From Prochlorococcus sp. AG-363-J23 (GTDB taxonomy: Bacteria > Cyanobacteriota > Cyanobacteriia > PCC-6307 > Cyanobiaceae), in NCBI GenBank assembly GCA_003280245.1, contig QCFN01000001.1, positions 24,300 through 88,299 of the forward strand: a DNA stretch of 64,000 nt, written 5' to 3'. Shown here one piece after another: positions 1 to 10,845 of this stretch. The position numbers and the translations under genes are program-made. The notes beneath the pieces were generated by a model. It was given only the letters and a program-made list of their open reading frames with translations. It was not told the DNA's origin and did no database searches. How positions within the stretch are numbered: the first letter of the stretch is position 1; each line of letters begins with the position of its first letter.

Positions 1-1292
1 TGACTCAAGTTTTTTAATAATTTTGAAGGAGGTTTTTGCTCTGCAAATAAGACTTTCACATTTTCTTCTTTTAGCTCCCCTAATACTGTGGCAATAGTCT
101 GAGGCCTAAGGCTCCCTAAATAACCCATAAAATCTAATAAGCTAATAGTTTTCAAACCAAATGCATCTCCGTAGTATTCCATAGCTTTGTGCTTAGAAAC
201 GATCGTCCTTTGATTAGAAGGGATTGTGGATACTTGTCTTTGAGTCCATTGATCTAAATCTTCTAAAAGAGAATTAATAGATTTAGATCTTTCACTTACA
301 ATTTTCCTATTTTCTCTATCAAAAAATGAAATGTTCTTCTTGATGCTTCTAGAAATAATATTTCCCATCTTGATAATGTTATGAGGATCATGCCAGATAT
401 GAGGATCGGCTCCTCCATGGTTATGGTGATGATGATCACCGCCATCGTCTGGAATTTGGGCTATCGGTTCGACATCATTGCCTGAAACATCTTTAAAGAA
501 ATGCTCATCGGCTTCAAACTCAAAGGGCATATGCTCAGTAAAGAATACATATTTACCAGCTTTTTTAATTTCTACATTGAATGTTGTGCTTTCTTTCCTC
601 TCATTAAATGTGAGAACATATGCTTTTTCCTGTGCAACAAGTTGATCATTATTACGTTTAAATTCTGAATTGTTAGATTCTAATAATTCTTCAGCAAGTT
701 CTTCTGATGCTTCAATATCACCAGACTTGAGAATGACCATTTTCATAGCAGGGTCGGCATAGTCTCCATCGACTTTTGCAAAAGACCATGTGTAGGTTCC
801 TGGTGAAAGTTCAAAGACACCAGCCCATTCAAAAGCTTCTTCTCCATGACCTTTGCCGTGGTCATCATGATCGTCATGCTTCGCAGATGAGAGTTCATCA
901 TGGTCGTCATGGTCATCAATCTCTATTGCACTTACACCGACAACAGTAGTTATGGGTTTATCTTGCCAATTTTTTATTGAAGGAGTCATCTCTTGACCAA
1001 GGGTGAAAACTTGACTTGCATTATTTAGAGCTTGAGCCTGTCTAGGAGAAAATTTGACATCATGAACGTCTACTTTTCTGCCAATCAAACACTTAACTTG
1101 CTTTGAAGGTGGAGCAATTGCCTTGACCAAGTCACAGACCAGCGGCTCTATTGCAACTATTGGTTTCTCCTTGGCTTGTACTCCTTGAGCCGTTCCAGAT
1201 AAAAAAACCGCTCCTGCTAAAAGATAAGTTTTTAAAATTGATCTATTGATCGAAAGCCTTCTCTGGCTTGATTGCCCTAAGTGATCTGGCAT
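1..1292 (-). CDS. znuA: Zn/Mn-family (TroA/cluster-9) ABC transporter periplasmic substrate-binding protein, ZnuA-like. The C-terminus runs off the window. It carries a His/Asp-rich loop plus an inserted domain of about 125 aa.
   Basis: Own translation of the minus strand from the ATG at 1292 gives MPDHLGQSSQRRLSINRSILKTYLLAGAVFLSGTAQG (signal peptide) ... DDHDDHDELSSAKHDDHDDHGKGHG ... DDGGDHHHHNHGGADPHIWHDPHN. The frame stays open to position 1, so it is absent from the ORF track (no stop in the window). It is divergent from znuC/znuB. Confidence 0.8.
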   Translation of the reverse strand, partial: MPDHLGQSSQRRLSINRSILKTYLLAGAVFLSGTAQGVQAKEKPIVAIEPLVCDLVKAIAPPSKQVKCLIGRKVDVHDVKFSPRQAQALNNASQVFTLGQEMTPSIKNWQDKPITTVVGVSAIEIDDHDDHDELSSAKHDDHDDHGKGHGEEAFEWAGVFELSPGTYTWSFAKVDGDYADPAMKMVILKSGDIEASEELAEELLESNNSEFKRNNDQLVAQEKAYVLTFNERKESTTFNVEIKKAGKYVFFTEHMPFEFEADEHFFKDVSGNDVEPIAQIPDDGGDHHHHNHGGADPHIWHDPHNIIKMGNIISRSIKKNISFFDRENRKIVSERSKSINSLLEDLDQWTQRQVSTIPSNQRTIVSKHKAMEYYGDAFGLKTISLLDFMGYLGSLRPQTIATVLGELKEENVKVLFAEQKPPSKLLKNLS

Positions 1293-1318
1293 GCGAAGCG
1301 AACGAGTGTTGATACAAA

Positions 1319-1333
1319 CGATAATGGTTATCA
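1319..1333. promoter_or_regulatory. Candidate Zur box in the znuA/znuC divergent promoter
   Basis: The sequence is cGATAAtggTTATCA, a 6-3-6 palindrome. It lies in the 90-bp gap between the znuA start (1292) and the likely znuC ATG (1383). It matches the cyanobacterial Zur consensus TGATAATNATTATCA and shares 14 of 15 positions with the site at 5503-5517. Confidence 0.6.
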
Positions 1334-1382
1334 TTTCTAATCGGCAAGCATATTGTTGTTTCATCTGGAAATACTCTTATCC

Positions 1383-2087
1383 ATGGCCAGTTTGATTGCT
1401 GAAAATTTGACATATTCCTATTCAAGGCAAAGTCATCTTGTTTTGGATGAGGTCTCAGTTGAGCTCAAACCTGGAACTATGACTGCACTTGTTGGTCCAA
1501 ATGGTGCTGGTAAGTCAACATTGTTAGGTCTACTCCAAGGCCGCAGTAAGCCTAATAAAGGTGAAATCACCATTGATGGTCATCCGTTGTTTGATAGTCG
1601 ATCCCAAGTTGCTCTAATGCCTCAAAGAGGAAGGTTGAACTGGAATTTTCCAATTACTGTTGAAGGCTTGGTCTCTTTAGGGCGAGTGAATCATTCAAGA
1701 TCAACATGTTGTGAACTAGAAGCTGCACTACAAAGAGTGGGAATATCTGATTTAGCAAATAGGAGACTCGATTCCTTGTCTGGCGGGCAACAACAAAGAG
1801 CATTACTTGCAAAAACTTTAATGACTCCATCAAAAATAATTCTTCTTGATGAACCTTGTTCTGCATTAGATCCACCTGCAAGAGAAGATTTTCTATTAAT
1901 CATTCGCCAGCTGGCTGATGCTGGGCTATCACTTTTTATTAGTAGTCACGATTGGGGGATATCTCTAAACGCGTATGACAAGGTCGTTGCTTTGGATAAG
2001 CATGTTTTGGCTTCTGGTACTCCTGAAGTAGTGAAAGAAAAACTTGATTCATTTAGCTGTATGCATAGTAGTTATTGCCGTGCTTAA
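1383..2087 (+). CDS. znuC: Zinc ABC transporter ATP-binding protein
   Basis: Walker A GPNGAGKST, signature LSGGQQQR and Walker B ILLDEP are present. The track ORF starts at a TTG (1353). The ATG at 1383 (MASLIAENLTYSY) is the more likely start. Confidence 0.85.
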   Translation: MASLIAENLTYSYSRQSHLVLDEVSVELKPGTMTALVGPNGAGKSTLLGLLQGRSKPNKGEITIDGHPLFDSRSQVALMPQRGRLNWNFPITVEGLVSLGRVNHSRSTCCELEAALQRVGISDLANRRLDSLSGGQQQRALLAKTLMTPSKIILLDEPCSALDPPAREDFLLIIRQLADAGLSLFISSHDWGISLNAYDKVVALDKHVLASGTPEVVKEKLDSFSCMHSSYCRA

Positions 2088-2880
2088 TGTTTACTCAACC
2101 CTTGAAACTTGGTGGTTAATTCCTTTTTGCGTAATTCTATTGACAGGAATACTTTGCCCGGCCATGGGGACTATATTAATTACCCATAAGCGACTTCTGC
2201 AAGTTAATTTAATCTCTCATTGTGTCCTGCCAGGATTGGTTTTGGCAGTAGCACTTGGCGTTAGTCCTTCCATAGGTGGTGTTTTTAGTGGGTTGTTTGG
2301 ATCTCTTGCAGCAGAAGCATTGACCAACAAAAAAAATGAAAATTATGAAGCAATAATGAATACAATTCTTGCTAGTTCTCTTGGTCTTGGTGTTCTTCTT
2401 ATACCTCTTCTTGGAATTAGGATCGATTTAGAATCTGTTCTATTTGGTGATTTATTAACTGCAAATTTAGGCGACTTATCAAGAACTATTATTTCTTTCT
2501 TAGTATTTATTTCTTTGATACTTTTTGGTTACGAAAAGCTTGTACATATTGGATTAGACCAGGAAGGGGCTTCTGACAGTGGCATAAAAGTATCTTATTT
2601 AAATTTACTGCTTGGTCTTACGAGTGCGCTTGTTATTGTTAGTTCAATGTCTGCAATTGGAGTCATTCTTGTAATTGCTTTGCTTTCCGCTCCTGCCTTA
2701 TTAGGTCTGCAACAAGCCCCATCTTTACGGGTTGCTATGGTTAGATCTGCAATCTTTGGATCTTTAATATCAGTTTTAGGTTTTTTGCTTGCGATTGCTT
2801 TCAATATGTCTCCAGGTCCCCTTGTTGCTGTTTTATGCATTCTCTTAATAGGATTGTTACCTAGAAAAAGAAATAATTGA
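2044..2880 (+). CDS. znuB: Zinc ABC transporter permease (ABC-3 family)
   Basis: Polytopic hydrophobic protein immediately after, and overlapping, znuC. The start is uncertain: TTG at 2044 or a GTG near 2079 that overlaps the znuC stop. Confidence 0.8.
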   Translation: MIHLAVCIVVIAVLNVYSTLETWWLIPFCVILLTGILCPAMGTILITHKRLLQVNLISHCVLPGLVLAVALGVSPSIGGVFSGLFGSLAAEALTNKKNENYEAIMNTILASSLGLGVLLIPLLGIRIDLESVLFGDLLTANLGDLSRTIISFLVFISLILFGYEKLVHIGLDQEGASDSGIKVSYLNLLLGLTSALVIVSSMSAIGVILVIALLSAPALLGLQQAPSLRVAMVRSAIFGSLISVLGFLLAIAFNMSPGPLVAVLCILLIGLLPRKRNN

Positions 2881-3020
2881 TCTATTTTCTGTAATTAGAC
2901 CTACGGAGTTATTGGCTTGCTTTTAAACTAAAAGGCAGAGCTTTGTGCATGAAAAACCTCTGACTAAGCAGGGTTGTAACAAGGTTGGAGTAGAAGGAGG
3001 ATTTAGCGGTTGTATTCGAT

Positions 3021-4100
3021 TTATGAAAATCCTTTAGGAGATGTTTTTATGCGATTTTTAAAATCCCAAACATTAATTCCTCCGTTTGCATTAACGGCTG
3101 CTAGAGCACAGTCATCAGGTCGCCAGGCAATTGCTTCGACACGGCCTCCTACGAATGCACCGCCAAGTGGCTCACCATGACCATTCTTCTGGAGAAGCCA
3201 TACAAAAACCGAACCATCCCTTGATCCAGAGGCTAATAGTGACCCTCGATTGGAGAAAGCGAGGCTGGAAATCGCTCCAATGTGAAGGTCTAACTCTCCT
3301 GGTACCGTTCCTTCAGGACCATTACCTTGAAAACTCCAAACTGTTATTCGTTCACCTCCTCCAGTGGCAAGAACCATGCCGGTTTGATCAAATGCTAGTT
3401 GACTTGGCTTGCCTGGATACCCAGTCATCTCAGCATCTTGCGCAGTTGAACGTCTCCAGAAATGAACAGAATTGTCTTGACTACCGCAAGCCACAATGTC
3501 GCCATCAGGGCTAAGCACCATCGACACGAGTGAGCCTTGCCATTCCAGCTTCTGATTGACCTGGTCACGAATTACATCGTAAAAAGTGACTCGGCCGTAG
3601 CATGCAGTTGCTAATTCATTCGACTTTGACCAAGCAACCGCACTGACAGTACTCAGATGTTTATCTGAGCGCCAATGTTCTTTTCCATCAGCACCAAAAA
3701 CATAGACGTAATGCGAAAAGACTACGGCTAAGAATTGTCCATCTGGTGACCATTGGAGATGTTCGACCCATCCTTTACCGATTTCCAATGCCTTATTTGA
3801 CTCACCTTCTTTACTCTTCCAAATCAGAACACGTCCATCCTGACCTGCAGTAGCAAAGATATGTCCATCTGGATGAATGGACATTGCAAGTATGCCACCT
3901 TCATGGACTTCCTTTCGATGCCAAAGGGTGGTTCCAGACTTGCCTTCAAAGGCATAAAGGCCTCCTGCAGCATCACCCACCAAAAAAGCATTACCTTCTA
4001 GTGCCCATCCGCAAACAATGACATAATCGGCGACTTCAGTACTCCACCCCTCGTGAAGCATACCCCGACCCTGAGGGCCGAGTTCTCTTATGTCAGGCAT
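3021..4100 (-). CDS. WD40-repeat beta-propeller protein
   Basis: The protein contains reiterated units of the form DG.(I/L)A(T/S)(A/G)(G/S)(Q/R)DG.V..W, for example ATAGQDGRVLIWK, ACGSQDNSVHFWR and ASGSRDGSVFVWL. Its ATG (4098-4100) lies inside the last codons of the upstream COG0523 reading frame. Confidence 0.85.
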   Translation of the reverse strand: MPDIRELGPQGRGMLHEGWSTEVADYVIVCGWALEGNAFLVGDAAGGLYAFEGKSGTTLWHRKEVHEGGILAMSIHPDGHIFATAGQDGRVLIWKSKEGESNKALEIGKGWVEHLQWSPDGQFLAVVFSHYVYVFGADGKEHWRSDKHLSTVSAVAWSKSNELATACYGRVTFYDVIRDQVNQKLEWQGSLVSMVLSPDGDIVACGSQDNSVHFWRRSTAQDAEMTGYPGKPSQLAFDQTGMVLATGGGERITVWSFQGNGPEGTVPGELDLHIGAISSLAFSNRGSLLASGSRDGSVFVWLLQKNGHGEPLGGAFVGGRVEAIAWRPDDCALAAVNANGGINVWDFKNRIKTSPKGFS

Positions 4101-4290
4101 TTGTCGAACCCACTTTGCAAGGCCTCTTCATCAAGGTTCCGACCGATGAACACGAGTTGATTTCGGCGAGGTTCATTACCCCACTCCCTATCAGGCTGTG
4201 AGGTAAAGAGCATATGTACACCTTGAAAAACTATTCTCCGCGGCTCGCCTGCATAACTAATAAACCCCTTTGTCCTAAAATATCTACACC
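4088..4290 (-). pseudogene. Displaced C-terminal remainder of the COG0523 CobW_C domain (other frame)
   Basis: The 76-aa ORF 4088..4318 reads ...RTKGFISYAGEPRRIVFQGVHMLFTSQPDREWGNEPRRNQLVFIGRNLDEEALQSGFDKC. This is the canonical end of CobW_C. It joins frame A right after ...EKGVDI if one extra base is assumed in the homopolymer at 4277-4280. Confidence 0.6.
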
Positions 4291-5469
4291 TTTTTCTGAG
4301 AGGAGACGCCCTAACCACTTATTGAGTTTTTCTGGATCGACATCGCCTAATCGCTCGATAGCAATTGAGCCCACTTCATCATCGTGTTCGTGTTGTGCTA
4401 CCCAAGTTCGCTCTGCTATAGGAGGAATTAAAAGATCATTCTGTTGATTACTTCCTGACTCAGAAACTGAAGTATCCATTCTTCTCACTTTGATATCGAA
4501 TTCCTCGGCCGTGTGCTGAGTGAATAAACCAAGATGTCCAGATTTTTCAACTTCAAGCGAAAACGACTTGCGCCCCTCGGACTGCAGCTGAAGGTTCACA
4601 TGCTTGTTCAGTGGGATTTTGTCACCTGGATGTAGGAGTTCAGCAGATTCAGCGTAAAGTCGCACACATGATTCTGCACCTTCATTGAGAGATTCTTCGT
4701 CTGTGCCTTGGTCAGCTACAACGACGAGAGACATCATCGGGTCAGGCCCCTCTTCGAGACTAACTTCGTAACGACCAGGCTCAAGTTGAAAAACACCCGT
4801 CCACTCAAATGGATACTCTGGTTCTAGGAAGCTGGGGCGGCGTTCCAAAACCTGGTCAAGGTCAAAAGCACCGAGGTTTAGAACAGTTTCAACAGAGACA
4901 TCCGCTTGCTTACTACGTACGACACGCGCCATACGGTTCATGTCACGTAGTCGTGCTTCAAGAGTATCGAGCGACTCATCAGAAACGAGATCAGTTTTGT
5001 TCAGAACCAGTACGTCGGCAAATGCAACCTGCTCGGAACTCTCATCACTGCGTCCCAATTGCTGATCAATATGAGCTGCATCAACAAGCGTAACGATCCC
5101 ATCGAGTGAAAATTCTGAACGAATTTCATCGTCCATGAAGAATGTTTGAGCAACAGGACCGGGGTCGGCAAGCCCCGTGGTCTCAACCAATACATAATCG
5201 AACTTATCGCGTCTCTTCATGAGGTTCCCAAGTACGCGAATTAGATCGCCTCGAACGGTGCAGCAAATGCATCCGTTGGACATCTCAAAAACCTCTTCGT
5301 CAGCATTGATCACCAGTCCCTGATCAATTCCAACTTCACCATATTCATTCTCAATAACAGCAATTCGTTTACCGTGTTCTTCGCTAAGAATCTTGTTAAG
5401 AAGAGTCGTCTTTCCAGAACCAAGAAATCCAGTAAGGATTGTTACGGGTACTTTTTGAGTACCTTTCAT
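4231..5469 (-). CDS. COG0523 (CobW/YjiA/ZigA-like) metallochaperone GTPase, as far as the first frame stays open
   Basis: P-loop GFLGSGKTT, metal motif GCICCT and Walker B/G4 LVLNKTD are present, followed by the start of a CobW_C domain (HEHDDEVGSIAIE...KLNKWLGRLL). The frame ends prematurely inside that domain. Confidence 0.8.
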   Translation of the reverse strand: MKGTQKVPVTILTGFLGSGKTTLLNKILSEEHGKRIAVIENEYGEVGIDQGLVINADEEVFEMSNGCICCTVRGDLIRVLGNLMKRRDKFDYVLVETTGLADPGPVAQTFFMDDEIRSEFSLDGIVTLVDAAHIDQQLGRSDESSEQVAFADVLVLNKTDLVSDESLDTLEARLRDMNRMARVVRSKQADVSVETVLNLGAFDLDQVLERRPSFLEPEYPFEWTGVFQLEPGRYEVSLEEGPDPMMSLVVVADQGTDEESLNEGAESCVRLYAESAELLHPGDKIPLNKHVNLQLQSEGRKSFSLEVEKSGHLGLFTQHTAEEFDIKVRRMDTSVSESGSNQQNDLLIPPIAERTWVAQHEHDDEVGSIAIERLGDVDPEKLNKWLGRLLSEKGVDILGQRGLLVMQASRGE

Positions 5470-5502: not shown

Positions 5503-5517
5503 TGATAATGGTTATCA
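5503..5517. promoter_or_regulatory. Candidate Zur box upstream of the COG0523-WD40 operon
   Basis: The sequence is TGATAAtggTTATCA, with perfect 6-bp arms. It lies 34-48 bp upstream of the COG0523 ATG (5469). Confidence 0.6.
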
Positions 5518-5735: not shown

Positions 5736-8081
5736 TTAGAAGCACTCCAACCTTTTTAAGGTGCTCTCTATTTCCGTTTTCGCTATATCTTTCCCCATTG
5801 CTTTGATCCATCTTTGGATTTCTGGCACTGTACTTTTTCCATTCTCTAAGGCAGCTTCAACCATATCTTTTATATAGCAAAGCCCTCCTTTCTGCATGGT
5901 GTGCATAGTGTGCAGGGTTTTTTCTGAGACTTCTTTTATATCTTCTTTTTTAAATTCTTTCTCTTTAGAAGAAAAGTTAGAGAGATGACCCTGCATACCC
6001 TGCATAGGTAAATGAGATGCACTTCCCCGCCTTGGTTCTGGTGGTGAAGGGTTGGAATGCAGGGTCGGGCTGGGTGCAGGGTCTAACCCTGCATCTGCAA
6101 CTTTGAGTCCGAAGAAAGAGGCCAGGTCAAAGTCTTTCAATGGACTGATTTTGTAGATGATCCCTGCACTACTTCTCTGACTCTGCACTTTTGGAATCTT
6201 TTTAATTTGGAGCCCAAAGTTTTTCTGACTGGGCTTTTTTATGCCTTGCTCAACAGTCCATTCGACAAATTCGTTATATAGCTTTTGGGCTTGTCTTTCT
6301 CCACCTTCCTCACATTTTTCAAGAATGAATCGAAGGTATGGATTCTGATCGAGGGCGTTTTCTATAGAAGCTTCTCTAACTGCTTTAACTTCTCCTCTTT
6401 TCTTGAGAGTGTTTTGCATCTCGGGTTCGAGCATGCTCCAGCACCATTGAAAGATTCCCTCAATTTCATCTCGTAATTTTTGTTTTAAGGACGGATCTGG
6501 TGAAGCTGCTGATCTTTCAATTCTGAAAGTAACCATCCTTCTAGTAAGACCTTCTTGCCCACCTCCACTTATGGAAGGTTGGTCATTAAATGCTCTCCAA
6601 ATAACTACTCCTAGCCTTGCATCGAAAGGATCAACGTATAGGCGTTTTACAGGTACAAGCTCATTACTAACTATTGAATTGAACATTCCTGGATCTTTAT
6701 AATGTCCGCTTGCATCGGCGTCTATACCGATCTTTTTTCCTATTAATTTAAATCGTTCAGTGTCCGAGGAAAAGGTAGCCGCTCTTGCTGTTCCAACAGC
6801 TTCTTTTCCGACTACATGTTGGAGGACTTCCAGCAAAGTTCCTTTTCCGCATCCTTTAGGCCCGTATAGATCAAAGAAGACTTCTAAGAGAAAAGGTTCA
6901 TCAATTTTCTTTGCACTAACTGACCAACGAAATGCGCTCCTAAGTAATTGAATAACTTCCTCATCTCCTTTAAAAGTTTCTGCTAGGAACTTCAACCAGC
7001 GTGGACATTTAGCTTTTGGGTCATAGTTGAATTTGAAGCTATGAGTCAGATAATCATCTCTTCTATGGAGTGGCTCAAATTTCTGGGCATTTAGGTCATA
7101 TGTCCCATTTTTAAAGCTCATTAAGTGGGACTGATTCCATGTTTGGTGCTTTAGGCGAGCTAGTAGTTCATCCTTCACTCCATTTAAAAGATTGCGGCTT
7201 CTTTTATCCCAAAGCATTAAATCCATCCATTCATGAAGAGGTAAATCCAGAGCAGTTTTTGGATTCTCTTCTAAATACTCCCAATGAGTTCCCGCCCATT
7301 TGTATAACCCGATAAGAGGGTTAAAGGCATAGTCTTTTTTAAAAATTGGAGTCGCTGTAACTGCCTTGTAATGTGTTTCTGATGTCCCATTAGGCTCAGG
7401 TTTCCAGGTCTTAAAGGGTTGAGCTACATCAACCAATTTCTGAAAAGCTTCTCTTCCGTGGCGACAAATAAAGTCATCGCCTCCATTCTTTGAGCCATCT
7501 ATTTCGCAAGGCAAAAGCACTATTCGCACAATTGCCCCTTTCTCTTTCAATGCATTGCAGAGACCATCCAGAGCATTTCGAACGGTGGTTTTAGTAGTTA
7601 CGTCACTATCAAAAACTATAAAAACTTCTCTCTTATCCCAATGAAGTTTCTCTAGTTCAGGCAGAAATCCTGAGCGATTATCCCTCCAGCAATCAACTCC
7701 ACTCAGTCCAATGGTTGGGAATCCGTTATGAGTTAATGAATCCGCTTTCTTCTCACCTTCACCAATAAAACTCCTCTTATGAGGTTTAAGAGAATTCTTT
7801 GGAAGTAGCGGAGAAAAATATGGTCTACATCCTCCATTTTTTGGAGATAGATATTTTGCATCTTCTGTCTGTCCAGGGTCAGGTTTGAGTCGATAGAAGG
7901 GTTTTCCATTGTGCAAATAAGGTTTTCCTTCTGGATCTTTGAAAAGAACAATCCATCCTGAATATCCATAACCAGTGAGATTCTTAGCCTCACTTTTCGT
8001 GACGCTGCGATAGTCCAAGAGATGATGAACCGACTCTGGGATTCCAGACTCAACTAGTTCTTGTATATGTTTTTTCAGCAT
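5736..8081 (-). CDS. Replicative primase-helicase: Toprim/DUF3854-like N-terminus plus P4/D5-family NTPase C-terminus
   Basis: Toprim-like motifs GEGEKKADSL and VFIVFDSD are followed by Walker A GPKGCGKGTLLEVL. The 781-aa size and architecture are typical of phage, plasmid and satellite primases. Confidence 0.7.
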   Translation of the reverse strand: MLKKHIQELVESGIPESVHHLLDYRSVTKSEAKNLTGYGYSGWIVLFKDPEGKPYLHNGKPFYRLKPDPGQTEDAKYLSPKNGGCRPYFSPLLPKNSLKPHKRSFIGEGEKKADSLTHNGFPTIGLSGVDCWRDNRSGFLPELEKLHWDKREVFIVFDSDVTTKTTVRNALDGLCNALKEKGAIVRIVLLPCEIDGSKNGGDDFICRHGREAFQKLVDVAQPFKTWKPEPNGTSETHYKAVTATPIFKKDYAFNPLIGLYKWAGTHWEYLEENPKTALDLPLHEWMDLMLWDKRSRNLLNGVKDELLARLKHQTWNQSHLMSFKNGTYDLNAQKFEPLHRRDDYLTHSFKFNYDPKAKCPRWLKFLAETFKGDEEVIQLLRSAFRWSVSAKKIDEPFLLEVFFDLYGPKGCGKGTLLEVLQHVVGKEAVGTARAATFSSDTERFKLIGKKIGIDADASGHYKDPGMFNSIVSNELVPVKRLYVDPFDARLGVVIWRAFNDQPSISGGGQEGLTRRMVTFRIERSAASPDPSLKQKLRDEIEGIFQWCWSMLEPEMQNTLKKRGEVKAVREASIENALDQNPYLRFILEKCEEGGERQAQKLYNEFVEWTVEQGIKKPSQKNFGLQIKKIPKVQSQRSSAGIIYKISPLKDFDLASFFGLKVADAGLDPAPSPTLHSNPSPPEPRRGSASHLPMQGMQGHLSNFSSKEKEFKKEDIKEVSEKTLHTMHTMQKGGLCYIKDMVEAALENGKSTVPEIQRWIKAMGKDIAKTEIESTLKRLECF

Positions 8082-8257
8082 GGGAAAAACCCCAGTCCCG
8101 CCCTCTGTTCCGCCATGCGGGATATTCCTTTTGGATAAATTCCTTTTATGGGAATCGATTTAAGAGACTTAGATTTCTGCGTATTACGCAGAGAATCAAT
8201 TATTATGGGATCTAAGACGTTACCTTGACCCTCAGCTATTCGGTTGGGGGTCATTTT

Positions 8258-8497
8258 TTATTCCCCCGAAAGGATCGCAATTCCCTTTTTGCTAATCCTT
8301 CCTCGAAGGTGAAATTGTTTTTTTACACTTTCGATGTCCCAACGAATCGGGGAGTTTTCGTGTTGCCCGTAGATGTAATCAATCCCGCCAGCTAAAAAGC
8401 CACCTCGGTCATCTCGAGCACGCATAAGAGTTTGCGCAGAGATATTTAGCCGCCTTGCAGCTTCAGGGGTTTTAACCCATTCAATTTGTTCAGACAT
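8258..8497 (-). CDS. Small HTH DNA-binding protein (excisionase/MerR-like)
   Basis: The 79-aa protein contains WVKTPEAARRLNISAQTLMRARDD, an HTH pattern typical of Xis/AlpA-type proteins. It lies between the integrase and the primase. Confidence 0.5.
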   Translation of the reverse strand: MSEQIEWVKTPEAARRLNISAQTLMRARDDRGGFLAGGIDYIYGQHENSPIRWDIESVKKQFHLRGRISKKGIAILSGE

Positions 8498-8503
8498 TTA
8501 CGA

Positions 8504-8698
8504 CTAAAAAGTAATGCCCTCTTGCTCCAAGGCTGCTCTTAATGACCTAGGAAAAGTGGAATACTTTTGCTTCCATCTTTCAATTACGCCTGTTTCACCA
8601 TTAGTAATTCGATCCTTGACGAACTGAATAGTCGCAGGAATGGAATCAGGGTTTTTGCCCTTTTTTGCTTTTAGTGGTTTACGAGCGACGGCCATCAA
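8504..8698 (-). CDS. Hypothetical small basic protein of the element
   Basis: A 64-aa ORF, co-oriented with and 6 bp upstream of the HTH gene. No recognisable motif. Confidence 0.35.
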   Translation of the reverse strand: MMAVARKPLKAKKGKNPDSIPATIQFVKDRITNGETGVIERWKQKYSTFPRSLRAALEQEGITF

Positions 8699-8878
8699 TC
8701 AACCTCCCAAGAGGAGTGGATATTTAGCCGTCACTTGGTTGCCCTTATGACCTTCAGAGATTGTGCAGTCGGTTACTTGTCCGAAGCCCCTCTCAGCTTT
8801 GCGAACAAGCTAGCGAACGCTATATGTGGTGTCAACTGAATTGCACCATGATAATGCGAAACCATATGCGAAATCTGT

Positions 8879-10177
8879 TCATGCTTTTACCTGTCCAGCT
8901 CTAAAACGTTCGCCTGCTGCTATTAACTCTTGATCCTCCATCCATCCGCCGTAATGCTTGCAGTGAGTTTTTAGATCGTGGCGCATTAGTGCTGCTGTAG
9001 CTCTTAATGAATATGGATTCTTCGACTCAATATGTGATCTCCAGGCATAGGAGTGACGCAAGCTATAAACCTTTAGCCCGTTTTGTTTGGCAAGCAGTTT
9101 CCAATAGGGATCTCTTTTTAGGAGCTGTCTTAGTGCCTGTCCAACCTGTTTAAATTCTCCAGTCTCTTTGGCTTTTTTAATAGCGTTTCGTACAGCTAAA
9201 GGAAGTTGTACTTTCCCACTTTCATATAGAGCCACTAGTCTTGCGCCTTCTCCAGGTAGGGAAGCTAAATCAATTGCTTGAACCTTTTGGGGAGGCTTAC
9301 TAATTCCAATCGAGTTCTCGTTATTTTTCACATGCCCAACAAATAAGTTTGAGTCTCTTACCTCTAAGACTGCTAGTTCAGAAGGTCTCAATCCATAAAG
9401 CGCAACTAGTCCTACTGCTAAATAAAGACTGTGTTTATTGTTCTTCTTAAGTGATTCCAAGAGACCTTCAAGTTGATCTCCCTTTAGAGGGACTGTTAAA
9501 GATTTCTGCTGAGACTTACCAATCAAGAGCCTCTTTAGCTCTTTCATTTTTCTGCTGTCACTACTTGGAGGCAGGAACCTATCGGGAGCCCCTTTTTCTT
9601 CAACAGCAAATCTGAGAAAAGCTATTACATCAACAAGTTGTCTCTTTCTTCCTTCTCCTCCCTCAGGACATTTTGCAAAATGATCTTTTGAATATTGGGT
9701 TAGTAGTTCTTTCCAATTACGAGGTTTAGGGCTTCTTCCTATTGTTTCCAAAGCCCTTCTTAAGCGAGTTCTTAAATCGGTAAGGGTTGATTCCTTTCTG
9801 TTCCCTCTGCTTTTAACAAATTCATCAGCAATAAATTTCCAGCCTTTATGGTTCTCACTGTTATCAGTCTTGCTCTCTACATCTGAACCTATCCGTAAAT
9901 CCTCTGCCTCTCTAAGACTAGTTACGTTGCCTTCGGTCAGAAGTCTTTTGAGTTCTGCAACGGCAGTGATAATCTTGCTTTGGTTACGGCTTGACCAGTC
10001 GTAAGGGATGAAGACGGAACTACGAGGGTTCTTCTTACCAAGACCATCTTGGAATTGATAAGTAACCTGCGTTTTTTCGACTCCTCCAATTTCTCGGCCT
10101 CTTAATTGCCATCCTGGCCCATTTTCGGTTCTGATGGTATGGCGTAACAAAGTTGCCCAATTTTGCCGAGAAGCCAT
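8879..10177 (-). CDS. int: Tyrosine recombinase / phage-type integrase
   Basis: The C-terminal catalytic region reads LYGLRPSEL ... SLRHSYAWRS ... LMRHDLKTHCKHYGGW (R, H-x-x-R-like, H and Y). The gene lies 136 bp from a tRNA gene. Confidence 0.8.
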   Translation of the reverse strand: MASRQNWATLLRHTIRTENGPGWQLRGREIGGVEKTQVTYQFQDGLGKKNPRSSVFIPYDWSSRNQSKIITAVAELKRLLTEGNVTSLREAEDLRIGSDVESKTDNSENHKGWKFIADEFVKSRGNRKESTLTDLRTRLRRALETIGRSPKPRNWKELLTQYSKDHFAKCPEGGEGRKRQLVDVIAFLRFAVEEKGAPDRFLPPSSDSRKMKELKRLLIGKSQQKSLTVPLKGDQLEGLLESLKKNNKHSLYLAVGLVALYGLRPSELAVLEVRDSNLFVGHVKNNENSIGISKPPQKVQAIDLASLPGEGARLVALYESGKVQLPLAVRNAIKKAKETGEFKQVGQALRQLLKRDPYWKLLAKQNGLKVYSLRHSYAWRSHIESKNPYSLRATAALMRHDLKTHCKHYGGWMEDQELIAAGERFRAGQVKA

Positions 10178-10260
10178 GTCTTGATTGAATTAGTTTGGCG
10201 GGATCCGTGGCGGGATTTAGCCATATTAAAGACAATCAAGCGGTATCAAGCAAGATACGG

Positions 10261-10292
10261 GGTTTGCCAGAATCTCTAAGACCGCCTGATAT
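10261..10292 (+). repeat. Candidate right att-like direct repeat
   Basis: See 5690-5727. This copy ends 20 bp upstream of tRNA-Ala. Confidence 0.3.
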
Positions 10293-10312
10293 CACTGCCA
10301 AAATCCACATAC

Positions 10313-10385
10313 GGGGCCATAGCTCAGCTGGTAGAGCACCTGCATGGCATGCAGGGGGTCAGCGGTTCGAGTCCGCTTGGCTCCA
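10313..10385 (+). tRNA. tRNA-Ala (anticodon GGC), no encoded CCA
   Basis: Folded by hand: GGGGCCA-TA-GCTC-AGCTGGTA-GAGC-A-CCTGC-ATGGCAT-GCAGG-GGGTC-AGCGG-TTCGAGT-CCGCT-TGGCTCC-A. The G3:U70 alanine identity pair is present and all four stems are perfect. Confidence 0.9.
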
Positions 10386-10845
10386 CTAAGATGTTTGTTT
10401 ATCAATCAAACTTTTATTCTATTTATTATTTTAATCTACTAATAGAGTCAATTATTAACTAATTAATTCTATTTACCAGAATAAAATCTAACAAATACAA
10501 AAGGGACCACCGAGCTATTCGCCTATAGCTGTTCAATCTATCCTCTAATTCCAAGTTTTTACTTAAAGAAATTAGATAATCAACGGAATCAGAAATATTA
10601 TCGATGTATTATTAATAATGTATTAATATCTAGTCAATAACTCTAAAATGTTTCCATTTTATGATTGTAGGTATTGCTATATCATATAACTTATAATTTT
10701 TAATTATTCGAAGCTATCCGATTTCTGATTACTCGTTTCAATTATTTTGGAAATTGTTAAGATATCGAATCGTTTGTAAGTTAATAATTTTGACTTGCAA
10801 TGATCCCAAGAAGATGTAGGTTTAATAAAATTACAATTTTTTCCT

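What the first reader, a model, noticed from the sequence alone, without database searches (positions are those of the whole stretch)
459..4821. The same inserted domain of about 110-125 aa occurs in periplasmic ZnuA and in the cytoplasmic COG0523 GTPase
Direct comparison of the two translations shows a shared module. ZnuA aa 151-278 (nt 459-842) reads EEAFEWAGVFELSPGTYTWSF...DPAMKMVIL...FNVEIKKAGKYVFFTEHMPFEFE. COG0523 aa 217-330 (nt 4480-4821) reads EYPFEWTGVFQLEPGRYEVSL...DPMMSLVVV...FSLEVEKSGHLGLFTQHTAEEFD. The colinear conserved blocks are FEW.GVF.L.PG.Y, DP.M..V, F.(V/L)E(I/V).K(A/S)G, FT(E/Q)H and EF(E/D). In ZnuA the module sits inside the His/Asp-rich loop. In the GTPase it sits between the G-domain and CobW_C, where His-rich linkers usually lie. 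One fold has therefore been placed at the metal-handling hot-spot of two unrelated zinc-homeostasis proteins in different compartments, both behind Zur-type boxes. I do not recognise the module as a named family. Conserved E/H/D positions make a metal-binding or metal-sensing role plausible, but that is inference.
Basis: partly seen in the sequence, partly recalled or inferred. Interest (0 to 1): 0.72.

Follow-up and report, generated by a model that had tools for sequence, protein, structure and literature searches.

The report
Unnamed domain shared by metal-transport proteins
The zinc-uptake protein ZnuA and the zinc-chaperone GTPase of this Prochlorococcus genome carry the same ~135-residue, very acidic beta-sandwich domain, which has no Pfam or NCBIfam name and no solved structure and also turns up in at least six other families of metal transporters in bacteria, archaea and probably algae.

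Summary
The ZnuA insert (nt 447-848) and the COG0523 insert (nt 4402-4827) are homologous: BLASTP gives 31% identity and E 8e-12, and a profile-profile comparison gives 99.4% probability and E 5.7e-22. Both fold with high confidence (pLDDT 93, pTM 0.87) into the same strand/helix order. Pfam, NCBIfam, PDB sequences, and Foldseek against PDB and BFVD all return nothing significant.

An exhaustive profile search finds 797 protein clusters. Besides ZnuA and COG0523, the module sits on ZIP transporters (one or two N-terminal copies), a CDF exporter, CzcB efflux adaptors, CbiM, CbtA, and small secreted or anchored proteins. One of these lies directly after the urease accessory genes.

The near-invariant residues are E-W-x-G, D-P-x-M and H-x3-E-F. 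Mean net charge is about -14. Modules cluster by host family, so the two copies here are ancient lineages and not a recent duplication. In 79 of 80 Prochlorococcus loci both genes carry it.

My best reading is a mobile accessory domain that binds divalent metal for capture or hand-off. The homology is shown. The metal binding is inferred. Only the COG0523 insert had been noted before (Barnett 2012), as unassignable.

The parts
1..1292 (-). znuA, a cluster A-I metal-binding protein. It is partial: the C-terminus runs off the left edge of the window.
   Evidence: Translation. Pfam ZnuA PF01297 E 4.2e-42, split in two by the insert.
447..848 (-). Module copy 1, in ZnuA aa 149-282. Conserved residues are E155, W156, D180, M183, H254, E258, F259 and the extra H264.
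   Evidence: AF2 model pLDDT 93.5, pTM 0.87.
849..917 (-). Upstream His/Asp-rich arm of the ZnuA loop (DDHDDHDELSSAKHDDHDDHGKG).
411..446 (-). Downstream His-rich arm of the ZnuA loop (DGGDHHHHNHGG), directly before DPHIWHDP.
1320..1332 (.). Zur-type box core GATAATGGTTATC in the divergent znuA/znuC promoter region.
   Evidence: A Zur box at this position in Prochlorococcus is described in PMC3323870.
1383..2087 (+). znuC, the ABC ATPase.
   Evidence: Pfam ABC_tran E 1.6e-31.
2044..2880 (+). znuB, the ABC-3 permease. These are ORF limits; the true start is uncertain.
   Evidence: Pfam ABC-3 E 9.3e-41.
3021..4100 (-). WD40 beta-propeller gene. Its start overlaps the end of COG0523 by 13 nt.
   Evidence: An orthologue follows a module-bearing COG0523 in Paraburkholderia.
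4088..5469 (-). COG0523 G3E GTPase (GSGKTT, GCICCT, cobW, CobW_C), interrupted by a 1-nt deletion near nt 4280.
4402..4827 (-). Module copy 2, in COG0523 aa 215-356. Conserved residues are E222, W223, D243, M246, H319, E323, F324.
   Evidence: AF2 model pLDDT 92.9, pTM 0.87.
5504..5516 (.). Second exact copy of the Zur-type box core, 35 nt upstream of the COG0523 start codon.
   Evidence: The homologous site in L002 and L004 has a degenerate second half-site.

Best explanation
The two inserts are copies of one autonomous domain of about 135 residues. It is a strongly acidic beta-sandwich of about nine strands and one helix, with the signature F-E-W-x-G ... D-P-x-M ... H-x3-E-F.

This domain is an unnamed, mobile accessory module of transition-metal transport and trafficking proteins. 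It has been fused or inserted independently into ZnuA-type binding proteins, COG0523 GTPases, ZIP importers, a CDF exporter, CzcB efflux adaptors, CbiM and CbtA. It also occurs as small secreted or membrane-anchored proteins. In each host it sits where His-rich loops or metal-receiving tails normally lie.

I propose that it binds a divalent metal (zinc in this Zur-controlled locus) through the invariant Glu, Asp, His and Glu, plus a further His in the ZnuA/ZIP subtype. Its anionic surface would help attract the cation. It would then act as a structured capture and hand-off station feeding the host protein's primary site.

- In ZnuA it would pre-concentrate zinc at the mouth of the binding cleft.
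- In COG0523 it would take the place of the usual His-rich linker between the GTPase and the client-binding domain.

Shown: the homology, the confidently predicted common secondary-structure order, the mobility across families, the metal-related gene contexts and the conservation pattern. Inferred: metal binding, which residues are ligands, and the hand-off role.
For: Homology:
- BLASTP E 8e-12 and hhalign 99.4%, E 5.7e-22.

Fold:
- Both inserts are predicted at pLDDT about 93 and pTM 0.87, with the same order of strands and helix.

Distribution:
- 797 cluster representatives at E<=1e-3 and 383 at E<=1e-10.

Architectures found:
- ZnuA, COG0523 and ZIP (PF02535).
- CDF (PF01545 plus ZT_dimer). 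This protein is from Paenibacillus solisilvae, WP_379192094.1.
- CusB/CzcB-type adaptors.
- CbiM (PF01891) and CbtA (PF09490).

Gene contexts:
- The CzcB fusion lies in a czcCBA operon beside P-type ATPases.
- The CbtA fusion follows CbtB.
- A standalone lipoprotein-like copy lies directly after ureG/D/E/F in Natrinema.
- An Alicyclobacillus copy lies between a metal-sensing regulator and CDF genes.
- Haloarchaeal ZnuA-type proteins carry it flanked by long His/Glu runs.

Conservation across 153 non-redundant instances:
- E 95%, W 95%, G 95%, D 85%, M 84%, H 98%, E 95%, F 96%.
- The only invariant polar residues are carboxylates and an imidazole.

Other properties:
- Nine of 172 instances lack two or more of the four polar residues, against about 2.3 expected if losses were independent.
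- Mean net charge is -14, and 98% of instances are negative.
- His-rich flanks occur in 16 of 16 ZnuA cases and about half of the unclassified cases.
- Both genes here have Zur-type boxes.
- In 79 of 80 Prochlorococcus loci both ZnuA and COG0523 carry the module.
Against: - No metal-binding measurement exists.
- I had no model coordinates, so I could not check that the conserved E, D, H and E cluster in space.
- The Asp is only 85% conserved, and Q, A or V replace it in some copies.
- Conserved Trp, Met, Phe and Gly could simply be core residues of a structural scaffold.
- His-rich flanks are uncommon in the COG0523 hosts (4 of 28) and the ZIP hosts (10 of 33).
- The COG0523 copy in this particular window sits in a frameshifted gene.
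- The module occurs on importers, exporters and chaperones, so one simple directional role cannot hold for all hosts.
Confidence: 0.6

Rival explanations
1. The module is a structural or protein-protein interaction domain that does not itself bind metal. It would act as a rigid spacer or docking platform that presents the flanking His-rich arms, mediates oligomerisation, or recruits a partner.
For: It is a beta-sandwich, a fold class often used for binding other molecules, with weak jelly-roll or PA14-like structural echoes only. Many conserved positions are hydrophobic. In ZnuA it is always flanked by His-rich arms that could be the real metal binders. COG0523 is paired with a WD40 propeller in Prochlorococcus and Paraburkholderia.
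Against: No common partner can exist across periplasm, cytoplasm, the archaeal surface and eukaryotic cell surfaces. The only invariant polar residues are E, D, H and E, with an HxxxE motif. Standalone copies sit in urease and metal-resistance clusters. According to PMC3323870, the WD40 pairing also holds for a branch 1b COG0523 with only a short loop (Acaryochloris AM1_3031), so the pairing does not depend on the module.
Confidence: 0.22
2. The module is a metal-sensing regulatory domain. It would bind metal when supply is adequate and then inhibit or gate its host (closing ZnuA, silencing COG0523, tuning ZIP or CDF), and would not pass metal on.
For: It occurs on both importers and exporters, which suits a sensor better than a one-way relay. 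A regulatory role has been proposed for the ZnuA His-rich loop itself (Wei et al. 2007, as cited in PMC8786288). In the CDF fusion it follows the cytoplasmic ZT_dimer domain; that this C-terminal domain senses metal in CDF transporters is from my own knowledge.
Against: Tandem duplication in ZnuA and ZIP and the standalone secreted copies fit capacity or capture better than allosteric control. Nothing here discriminates directly between the two.
Confidence: 0.15
3. The resemblance comes from a recent duplication or gene conversion between the two neighbouring Prochlorococcus genes, or from compositional bias in acidic sequence. On this view it is not an ancient shared domain.
For: The genes lie 3 kb apart and both inserts are acidic.
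Against: The two copies share only 31% identity. Each is 55-73% identical to copies in the same host family from other organisms. In a nearest-neighbour analysis the ZnuA-type and COG0523-type never pair with each other. BLASTP used compositional adjustment, and the match is colinear over 119 profile columns.
Confidence: 0.01

Closest known systems
The roughly 150-aa insert of cyanobacterial COG0523 'branch 1a' (Barnett et al. 2012, PMC3323870)
   Same: It is the same feature in the same gene family. The paper describes long inserts poor in His, predicted to hold 4-6 strands and 1-2 helices, 'conceivably an additional domain', with no InterPro match. It also notes the linkage to znuABC/zur and to a WD-40 gene.
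   Different: The paper does not connect the insert to ZnuA or to any other protein. Here the insert is shown to be homologous to the ZnuA insert and to modules in ZIP, CDF, CzcB, CbiM, CbtA and standalone proteins.
His-rich loop of ZnuA-type zinc-binding proteins (Synechocystis ZnuA 1PQ4; Wei et al. 2007, as cited in PMC8786288)
   Same: Same position in the protein and the same presumed job, which is to raise the local zinc concentration near the cleft or to regulate it.
   Different: The known loop is short and is described as flexible (from my own knowledge). Here the loop contains a folded 134-residue domain, and two in some strains.
Accessory periplasmic zinc binders: ZinT (also fused to AdcA), ZrgA, PA4063 and AztD
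   Same: They are auxiliary zinc-binding proteins or domains that serve ZnuABC-type importers, are often Zur-regulated, and often carry His-rich segments (PMC8561739 and PMC9820375, listed).
   Different: There is no sequence or fold relationship. ZrgA scores only E 0.6 on the His-rich stretch. Foldseek finds no PDB match at E<=0.001. None of these is known on the cytoplasmic side or on exporters.
Modular metal-binding domains of exporters: HMA domains of P-type ATPases, and the CusF-like domain or metal-binding N-terminal tail of CusB/SilB adaptors (recalled from memory)
   Same: The concept of a small mobile metal-binding domain attached to transporters in variable copy number. The CzcB fusions place the module at the N-terminus; that CusB receives metal at its N-terminus is from my own knowledge.
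   Different: No HMA, CusF or other known-fold match was found for the module by HMM or Foldseek. The ligand chemistry is different (no Cys pair or Met cluster). The host range is much wider, including binding proteins, GTPase chaperones and importers.

Membership tests
Cluster A-I metal-binding protein (Pfam ZnuA, PF01297) | Match to the family profile above the curated cut-off | tested here: met
   144.9 bits against a cut-off of 29, in two stretches split by the insert.
Cluster A-I metal-binding protein (Pfam ZnuA, PF01297) | Conserved His ligand motifs and a His/Asp-rich loop typical of zinc-specific members | tested here: inconclusive
   VDVHD, DPHIWHDP and SKHKAMEYY are present, and the loop is His/Asp-rich. 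I mapped them to ligand positions from memory, not from a structural alignment. The C-terminus lies outside the window.
Cluster A-I metal-binding protein (Pfam ZnuA, PF01297) | Adjacent ABC ATPase and ABC-3 permease genes, and Zur-type control | tested here: met
   znuC and znuB. Zur-type box in the divergent promoter.
Named ZnuA or AztC equivalogs (NCBIfam NF007091, NF040870) | Score above the equivalog cut-off | tested here: not met
   52 against 268 for ZnuA, and 96.5 against 350 for AztC. The protein is partial and interrupted by the insert.
COG0523 G3E GTPase | cobW G-domain with Walker A and the GCxCC motif, plus a CobW_C domain | tested here: met
   PF02492 E 1.3e-61. PF07683 E 1.2e-26 after repairing the frame. 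GSGKTT at aa 17-22 (within GFLGSGKTT, aa 14-22) and GCICCT at aa 66-71.
COG0523 G3E GTPase | Intact reading frame | tested here: not met
   A 1-nt deletion near nt 4280 relative to L002 and L004 separates CobW_C from the rest of the protein. This may be a true pseudogene or an assembly error.
Named COG0523 equivalogs (ZigA NF038288, YjiA-type PRK11537, CobW TIGR02475) | Score above the equivalog cut-off | tested here: not met
   197.9 against 600, 257.1 against 361, and 216.2 against 332.1.
Known accessory metal-binding domains (ZinT, ZrgA, HMA, CusF and others) | Profile or fold match of the module | tested here: not met
   No Pfam or NCBIfam hit at E<=0.1 for either insert or for the standalone proteins. 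No PDB sequence hit below E 1.4. No Foldseek hit at E<=0.001 in PDB or BFVD, with best TM about 0.3-0.4.
The unnamed module itself (FEWxG - DPxM - HxxxEF domain) | Colinear signature motifs, about 135 residues, acidic, with the common predicted strand/helix order | tested here: met
   Both window copies have every motif. Net charge is -17 and -16. The two models have matching secondary-structure order.
The unnamed module itself (FEWxG - DPxM - HxxxEF domain) | Binds a divalent metal through the conserved E/D/H/E | not testable with these tools
Any curated entry outside Pfam and NCBIfam (InterPro, CDD, AlphaFold DB clusters) | An existing name for the domain | not testable with these tools
   These resources are not on hand. 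In RefSeq and GenBank records the standalone copies are annotated only as 'hypothetical protein'.

The most novel reading that the evidence does not exclude
The module is a new fold of divalent-metal-binding domain that works on both sides of the membrane and in all three domains of life. It would be a universal relay station attached to importers, exporters, binding proteins and GTPase chaperones. Its copy number would be tuned by metal scarcity, as in the tandem copies in some Prochlorococcus ZnuA and in the ZIP proteins that probably come from planktonic eukaryotes. Its presence would then mark unannotated proteins as metal-trafficking components and could serve as a zinc-stress marker in ocean metaproteomes.
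Probability: 0.4. Interest if true: 0.88.

Novelty: new variant of a known kind. Interest (0 to 1): 0.78.

Why it matters
Marine picocyanobacteria grow at very low zinc concentrations, and how ZnuA and COG0523 proteins acquire and pass on zinc there is an open question.

A folded, conserved domain sitting at the metal hot-spot of both proteins gives a concrete object to test. The same domain also occurs on ZIP, CDF, CzcB, CbiM and CbtA transporters.

It offers three things:
- a candidate explanation for the unexplained 'branch 1a' COG0523 insert noted in 2012;
- a new family, with no solved structure, for domain databases and structural work;
- a sequence signature that flags hundreds of 'hypothetical' proteins as likely metal-handling components, including cell-surface proteins that are probably from planktonic eukaryotes.

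Tried and rejected
Searches that returned nothing useful:
- Pfam and NCBIfam on the inserts and on standalone proteins.
- A profile search of PDB sequences. The best hit was E 1.4, interleukin-12 beta, which is noise.
- Foldseek of both models against PDB, and of one against BFVD. Only weak hits at TM 0.25-0.43 appeared, to hemagglutinin, capsid and PA14 adhesin proteins.
- A scan of viral contigs, which found no relatives.
- Full-text searches for the motif strings and for any report of an inserted domain in ZnuA.
- The supplements of Mikhaylina et al., which do not annotate synw0972 or synw0973. I therefore could not tie the module-bearing genes to the experimentally Zur-repressed genes of WH8102.

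Results that were uninformative:
- The first homologue search returned only fragments under 250 aa, so it said little about architectures.
- The tool's chance test for the Zur core allows 2 mismatches and was uninformative (2 found, 2.0 expected). Both hits are in fact exact.
- The Zur core is not conserved at one mismatch or fewer upstream of COG0523 in the other loci. The closest relatives have a degenerate half-site there.
- The gene context of standalone P0144 and of the two-module P0125 told nothing.

Hypotheses rejected:
- A recent duplication between the two genes.
- Compositional artefact.
- Strict co-occurrence of the module in ZnuA and COG0523 outside picocyanobacteria. The Haloarcula locus has the module in ZnuA but not in the two neighbouring COG0523 genes. 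In the 14-kb Paraburkholderia region shown, the module is in COG0523 and no ZnuA gene is annotated.

Full report
**The locus**

The window is from Prochlorococcus. psbC and psbD lie at 18.7-21.1 kb. The ZnuA insert is 100% identical to Prochlorococcus sp. AG-409-J19 and 96-98% identical to three other single-cell genomes.

Gene order is as follows.
- znuA is on the minus strand, starts at nt 1292 and runs off the left edge.
- znuC (1383-2087) and znuB (2044-2880) are on the plus strand.
- A WD40 gene lies at 3021-4100 on the minus strand.
- A COG0523 GTPase lies at 4088-5469 on the minus strand.

An exact 13-mer, GATAATGGTTATC, is the core of a 7-1-7 Fur-family palindrome. It lies between znuA and znuC (1320-1332) and 35 nt upstream of COG0523 (5504-5516). 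A Zur box between znuA and znuC in Prochlorococcus was described by Barnett et al. 2012 (PMC3323870).

**Checking the observation**

- BLASTP of the two inserts gives 31% identity over 114 residues, E 8e-12, with compositional adjustment.
- I collected relatives of each insert separately: 8 ZnuA-type (A2) and 19 COG0523-type (A3). Compared as profiles, they give probability 99.4%, E 5.7e-22 over 119 columns.
- With the terminal strand included, the module spans ZnuA aa 149-282 (nt 447-848) and COG0523 aa 215-356 (nt 4402-4827).

**Placement in the two hosts**

In ZnuA the module splits the Pfam ZnuA match. It lies between two His/Asp-rich arms: DDHDDHDELSSAKHDDHDDHGKG before it, and DGGDHHHHNHGG after it, immediately ahead of DPHIWHDP. 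It is therefore nested inside the His-rich loop.

In COG0523 it lies between the cobW G-domain (aa 8-184) and CobW_C (aa 367-459 of the frame-repaired protein).

**Fold**

AlphaFold2 on a 26-sequence alignment gives pLDDT 93.5 and pTM 0.87 for the ZnuA module. For the COG0523 module it gives 92.9 and 0.87. Both show the same order of elements: three strands, one helix, five strands, a short helical turn carrying HxxxEF, and a terminal strand.

Foldseek finds no PDB or BFVD match at E<=0.001. The best TM-scores are 0.25-0.43, to jelly-roll or PA14-like proteins. A profile search of all PDB sequences finds nothing below E 1.4. Pfam and NCBIfam have no model for it.

**How widespread it is**

An exhaustive HMMER search of 1.84 billion cluster representatives finds 797 proteins at E<=1e-3 and 383 at E<=1e-10. 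I classified the best 150.

| Host or form | Evidence |
|---|---|
| COG0523 | 34 proteins |
| ZnuA-type binding proteins | At least 18, with one or two copies |
| ZIP transporters (PF02535) | At least 25, with one or two N-terminal copies after a signal peptide |
| CDF exporter | Module after the ZT_dimer domain; Paenibacillus solisilvae WP_379192094.1 |
| CusB/CzcB-type adaptors | Module at the N-terminus; one lies in a czcCBA operon beside P-type ATPases |
| CbiM | Module inserted between transmembrane helices |
| CbtA | Gene follows CbtB |
| TPR protein | One case |
| Small or repeat-only proteins | Signal peptide or anchor plus module, often with a His-rich tail; also proteins made of tandem modules alone |

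A search of plasmids adds further cases.
- Haloarchaeal ZnuA-type proteins whose module is flanked by long His/Glu runs.
- A lipoprotein-like standalone copy directly after ureG/D/E/F in Natrinema.
- An Alicyclobacillus copy between a metal-sensing regulator and CDF genes.
- COG0523 copies in Paraburkholderia and Pantoea.

Several ZIP fusions come from single-gene contigs of about 2 kb, one with a cluster member labelled from run ERR1719446. I read these as transcripts of planktonic eukaryotes, but that is an inference. No relatives were found in viral contigs.

**Conservation and properties**

Across 153 instances that are non-redundant at 70% identity, the near-invariant positions are as follows.
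- E (95%), W (95%) and G (95%) in FEWxG.
- D (85%), P (68%) and M (84%) in DPxM.
- H (98%), E (95%) and F (96%) in HxxxEF.

The only invariant polar residues are two Glu, one Asp and one His.

Two subtypes appear.
- A 'YADPxM' subtype with an extra His (EFExxxH[FY]) dominates in ZnuA, ZIP, the one CbiM fusion and many of the unclassified proteins.
- A 'GPDPxM' subtype without the extra His dominates in COG0523 and is also seen in the CDF, CzcB, CbtA and TPR fusions.

Other properties:
- The module is very acidic. Mean net charge is -14, 98% of instances are negative, and the window copies are -17 and -16.
- Nine of 172 instances lack two or more of the four polar residues, against about 2.3 expected if losses were independent.
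- His-rich flanks within 30 residues occur in 16/16 ZnuA, 35/67 unclassified, 10/33 ZIP and 4/28 COG0523 cases.

**Evolution**

By nearest neighbour, modules cluster with their host family: COG0523 to COG0523 in 39 of 45 cases, ZnuA to ZnuA in 18 of 24. The ZnuA type and the COG0523 type never pair with each other. The two copies here are therefore old, separate lineages and not a local duplication.

Among 80 Prochlorococcus loci from species-representative genomes, 79 carry the module in both ZnuA and COG0523. The exception is a 2-kb contig. Ten loci, including the HNLC2 assembly, have two tandem modules in ZnuA.

The pairing does not hold everywhere. A Haloarcula plasmid has the module in ZnuA but not in the two adjacent COG0523 genes. 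In the 14-kb Paraburkholderia region shown, the module is in COG0523 and no ZnuA gene is annotated.

**What is already known**

Barnett et al. 2012 noted that COG0523 'branch 1a' (Prochlorococcus and Synechococcus WH8102) has inserts of about 150 aa. They described them as poor in His, predicted to hold 4-6 strands and 1-2 helices, possibly a domain in their own right, with no InterPro match, and linked to a WD-40 gene.

They did not mention ZnuA in this connection. I found no paper in the searchable library that reports the shared module. In WH8102 the whole cluster synw0968-0973 around znuABC is Zur-repressed (PMC9337993). Whether synw0972 and synw0973 are the module-bearing COG0523 and the WD40 gene I could not confirm.

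**Mechanism**

Shown:
- One autonomous domain occurs at the positions where His-rich loops or metal-receiving tails normally sit, in at least seven metal-transport families plus COG0523 chaperones.
- It occurs on both sides of the membrane.
- Its gene contexts involve zinc, cobalt, nickel and heavy-metal efflux.

Inferred:
- The domain binds a divalent cation through Glu/Asp/His/Glu, plus His in the ZnuA/ZIP subtype, helped by its anionic surface.
- It serves as a capture and hand-off station for the host's primary site.

I give the domain-family claim about 0.95 and the metal-binding relay claim about 0.6. The rivals are a scaffold or docking domain that does not bind metal (0.22) and a metal-sensing regulatory domain (0.15). 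Chance similarity or recent duplication is excluded.

**Verdict**

It is a new, unnamed domain family of a known general kind, namely accessory domains of metal-handling proteins. It has an unusual host range and no solved structure.

Noticed in passing
window ~4280 (gene 4088-5469, minus strand): The COG0523 gene has a 1-nt deletion in a T-run relative to its closest relatives L002 and L004. This puts CobW_C in another frame. A locally divergent patch surrounds the deletion, while the flanks are nearly identical. It is either a pseudogene or an assembly error.
   Followed up: partly
window 5736-10386: An integrated element lies next to the COG0523 promoter: a DNA primase-like protein (D5_N, DUF3854, DUF5906; 5736-8081), an integrase (8879-10177; PHROG integrase, E 4.5e-9) and tRNA-Ala (10313-10386). 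Homology to L002 and L004 breaks about 185 nt upstream of the COG0523 start. From memory, it resembles the tRNA-targeting integrative elements described in Prochlorococcus.
   Followed up: partly
window 3021-4100; L081 7705-8736: The WD40 gene overlaps the end of COG0523 by 13 nt. An orthologous WD40 gene (30% identity, E 5e-55) follows a module-bearing COG0523 on a Paraburkholderia sprentiae plasmid, its annotated start overlapping the GTPase gene's end by 4 nt. The GTPase-WD40 pair is therefore conserved across phyla.
   Followed up: partly
window 1-5469 compared with L002-L080: In 77 of 79 Prochlorococcus loci COG0523 lies directly downstream of znuA on the same strand. In the window, L002 and L004, the COG0523-WD40 pair lies on the far side of znuCB. 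In the window it has its own Zur-type box, which is degenerate in L002 and L004.
   Followed up: partly
L024-L033; P0119, P0001, P0002: Some Prochlorococcus ZnuA proteins, including that of the HNLC2 assembly, carry two tandem copies of the module separated by a short His-containing linker.
   Followed up: partly
window 1230-1292 (ZnuA N-terminus): The ZnuA signal region reads SQRRLSINRS followed by a hydrophobic stretch, which looks like a twin-arginine (Tat) signal. A related ZnuA-type protein (P0040) starts MTTRRTLLQS. Export in the folded state would matter for a metal-binding insert.
   Followed up: no
L082 6896-7447 (Natrinema versiforme pNVE414): A 183-aa lipoprotein-like protein consists of the module plus His-rich ends. 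Its gene lies directly after ureG, ureD, ureE and ureF, which hints at a nickel-related role for a standalone copy.
   Followed up: partly
P0252, P0128, P0194 (metagenome or metatranscriptome proteins): Eukaryote-like secreted proteins carry one or two modules. In P0252 the module is followed by a His run, a Cys-rich region and a C-terminal hydrophobic anchor. These may be cell-surface metal-binding proteins of phytoplankton.
   Followed up: no
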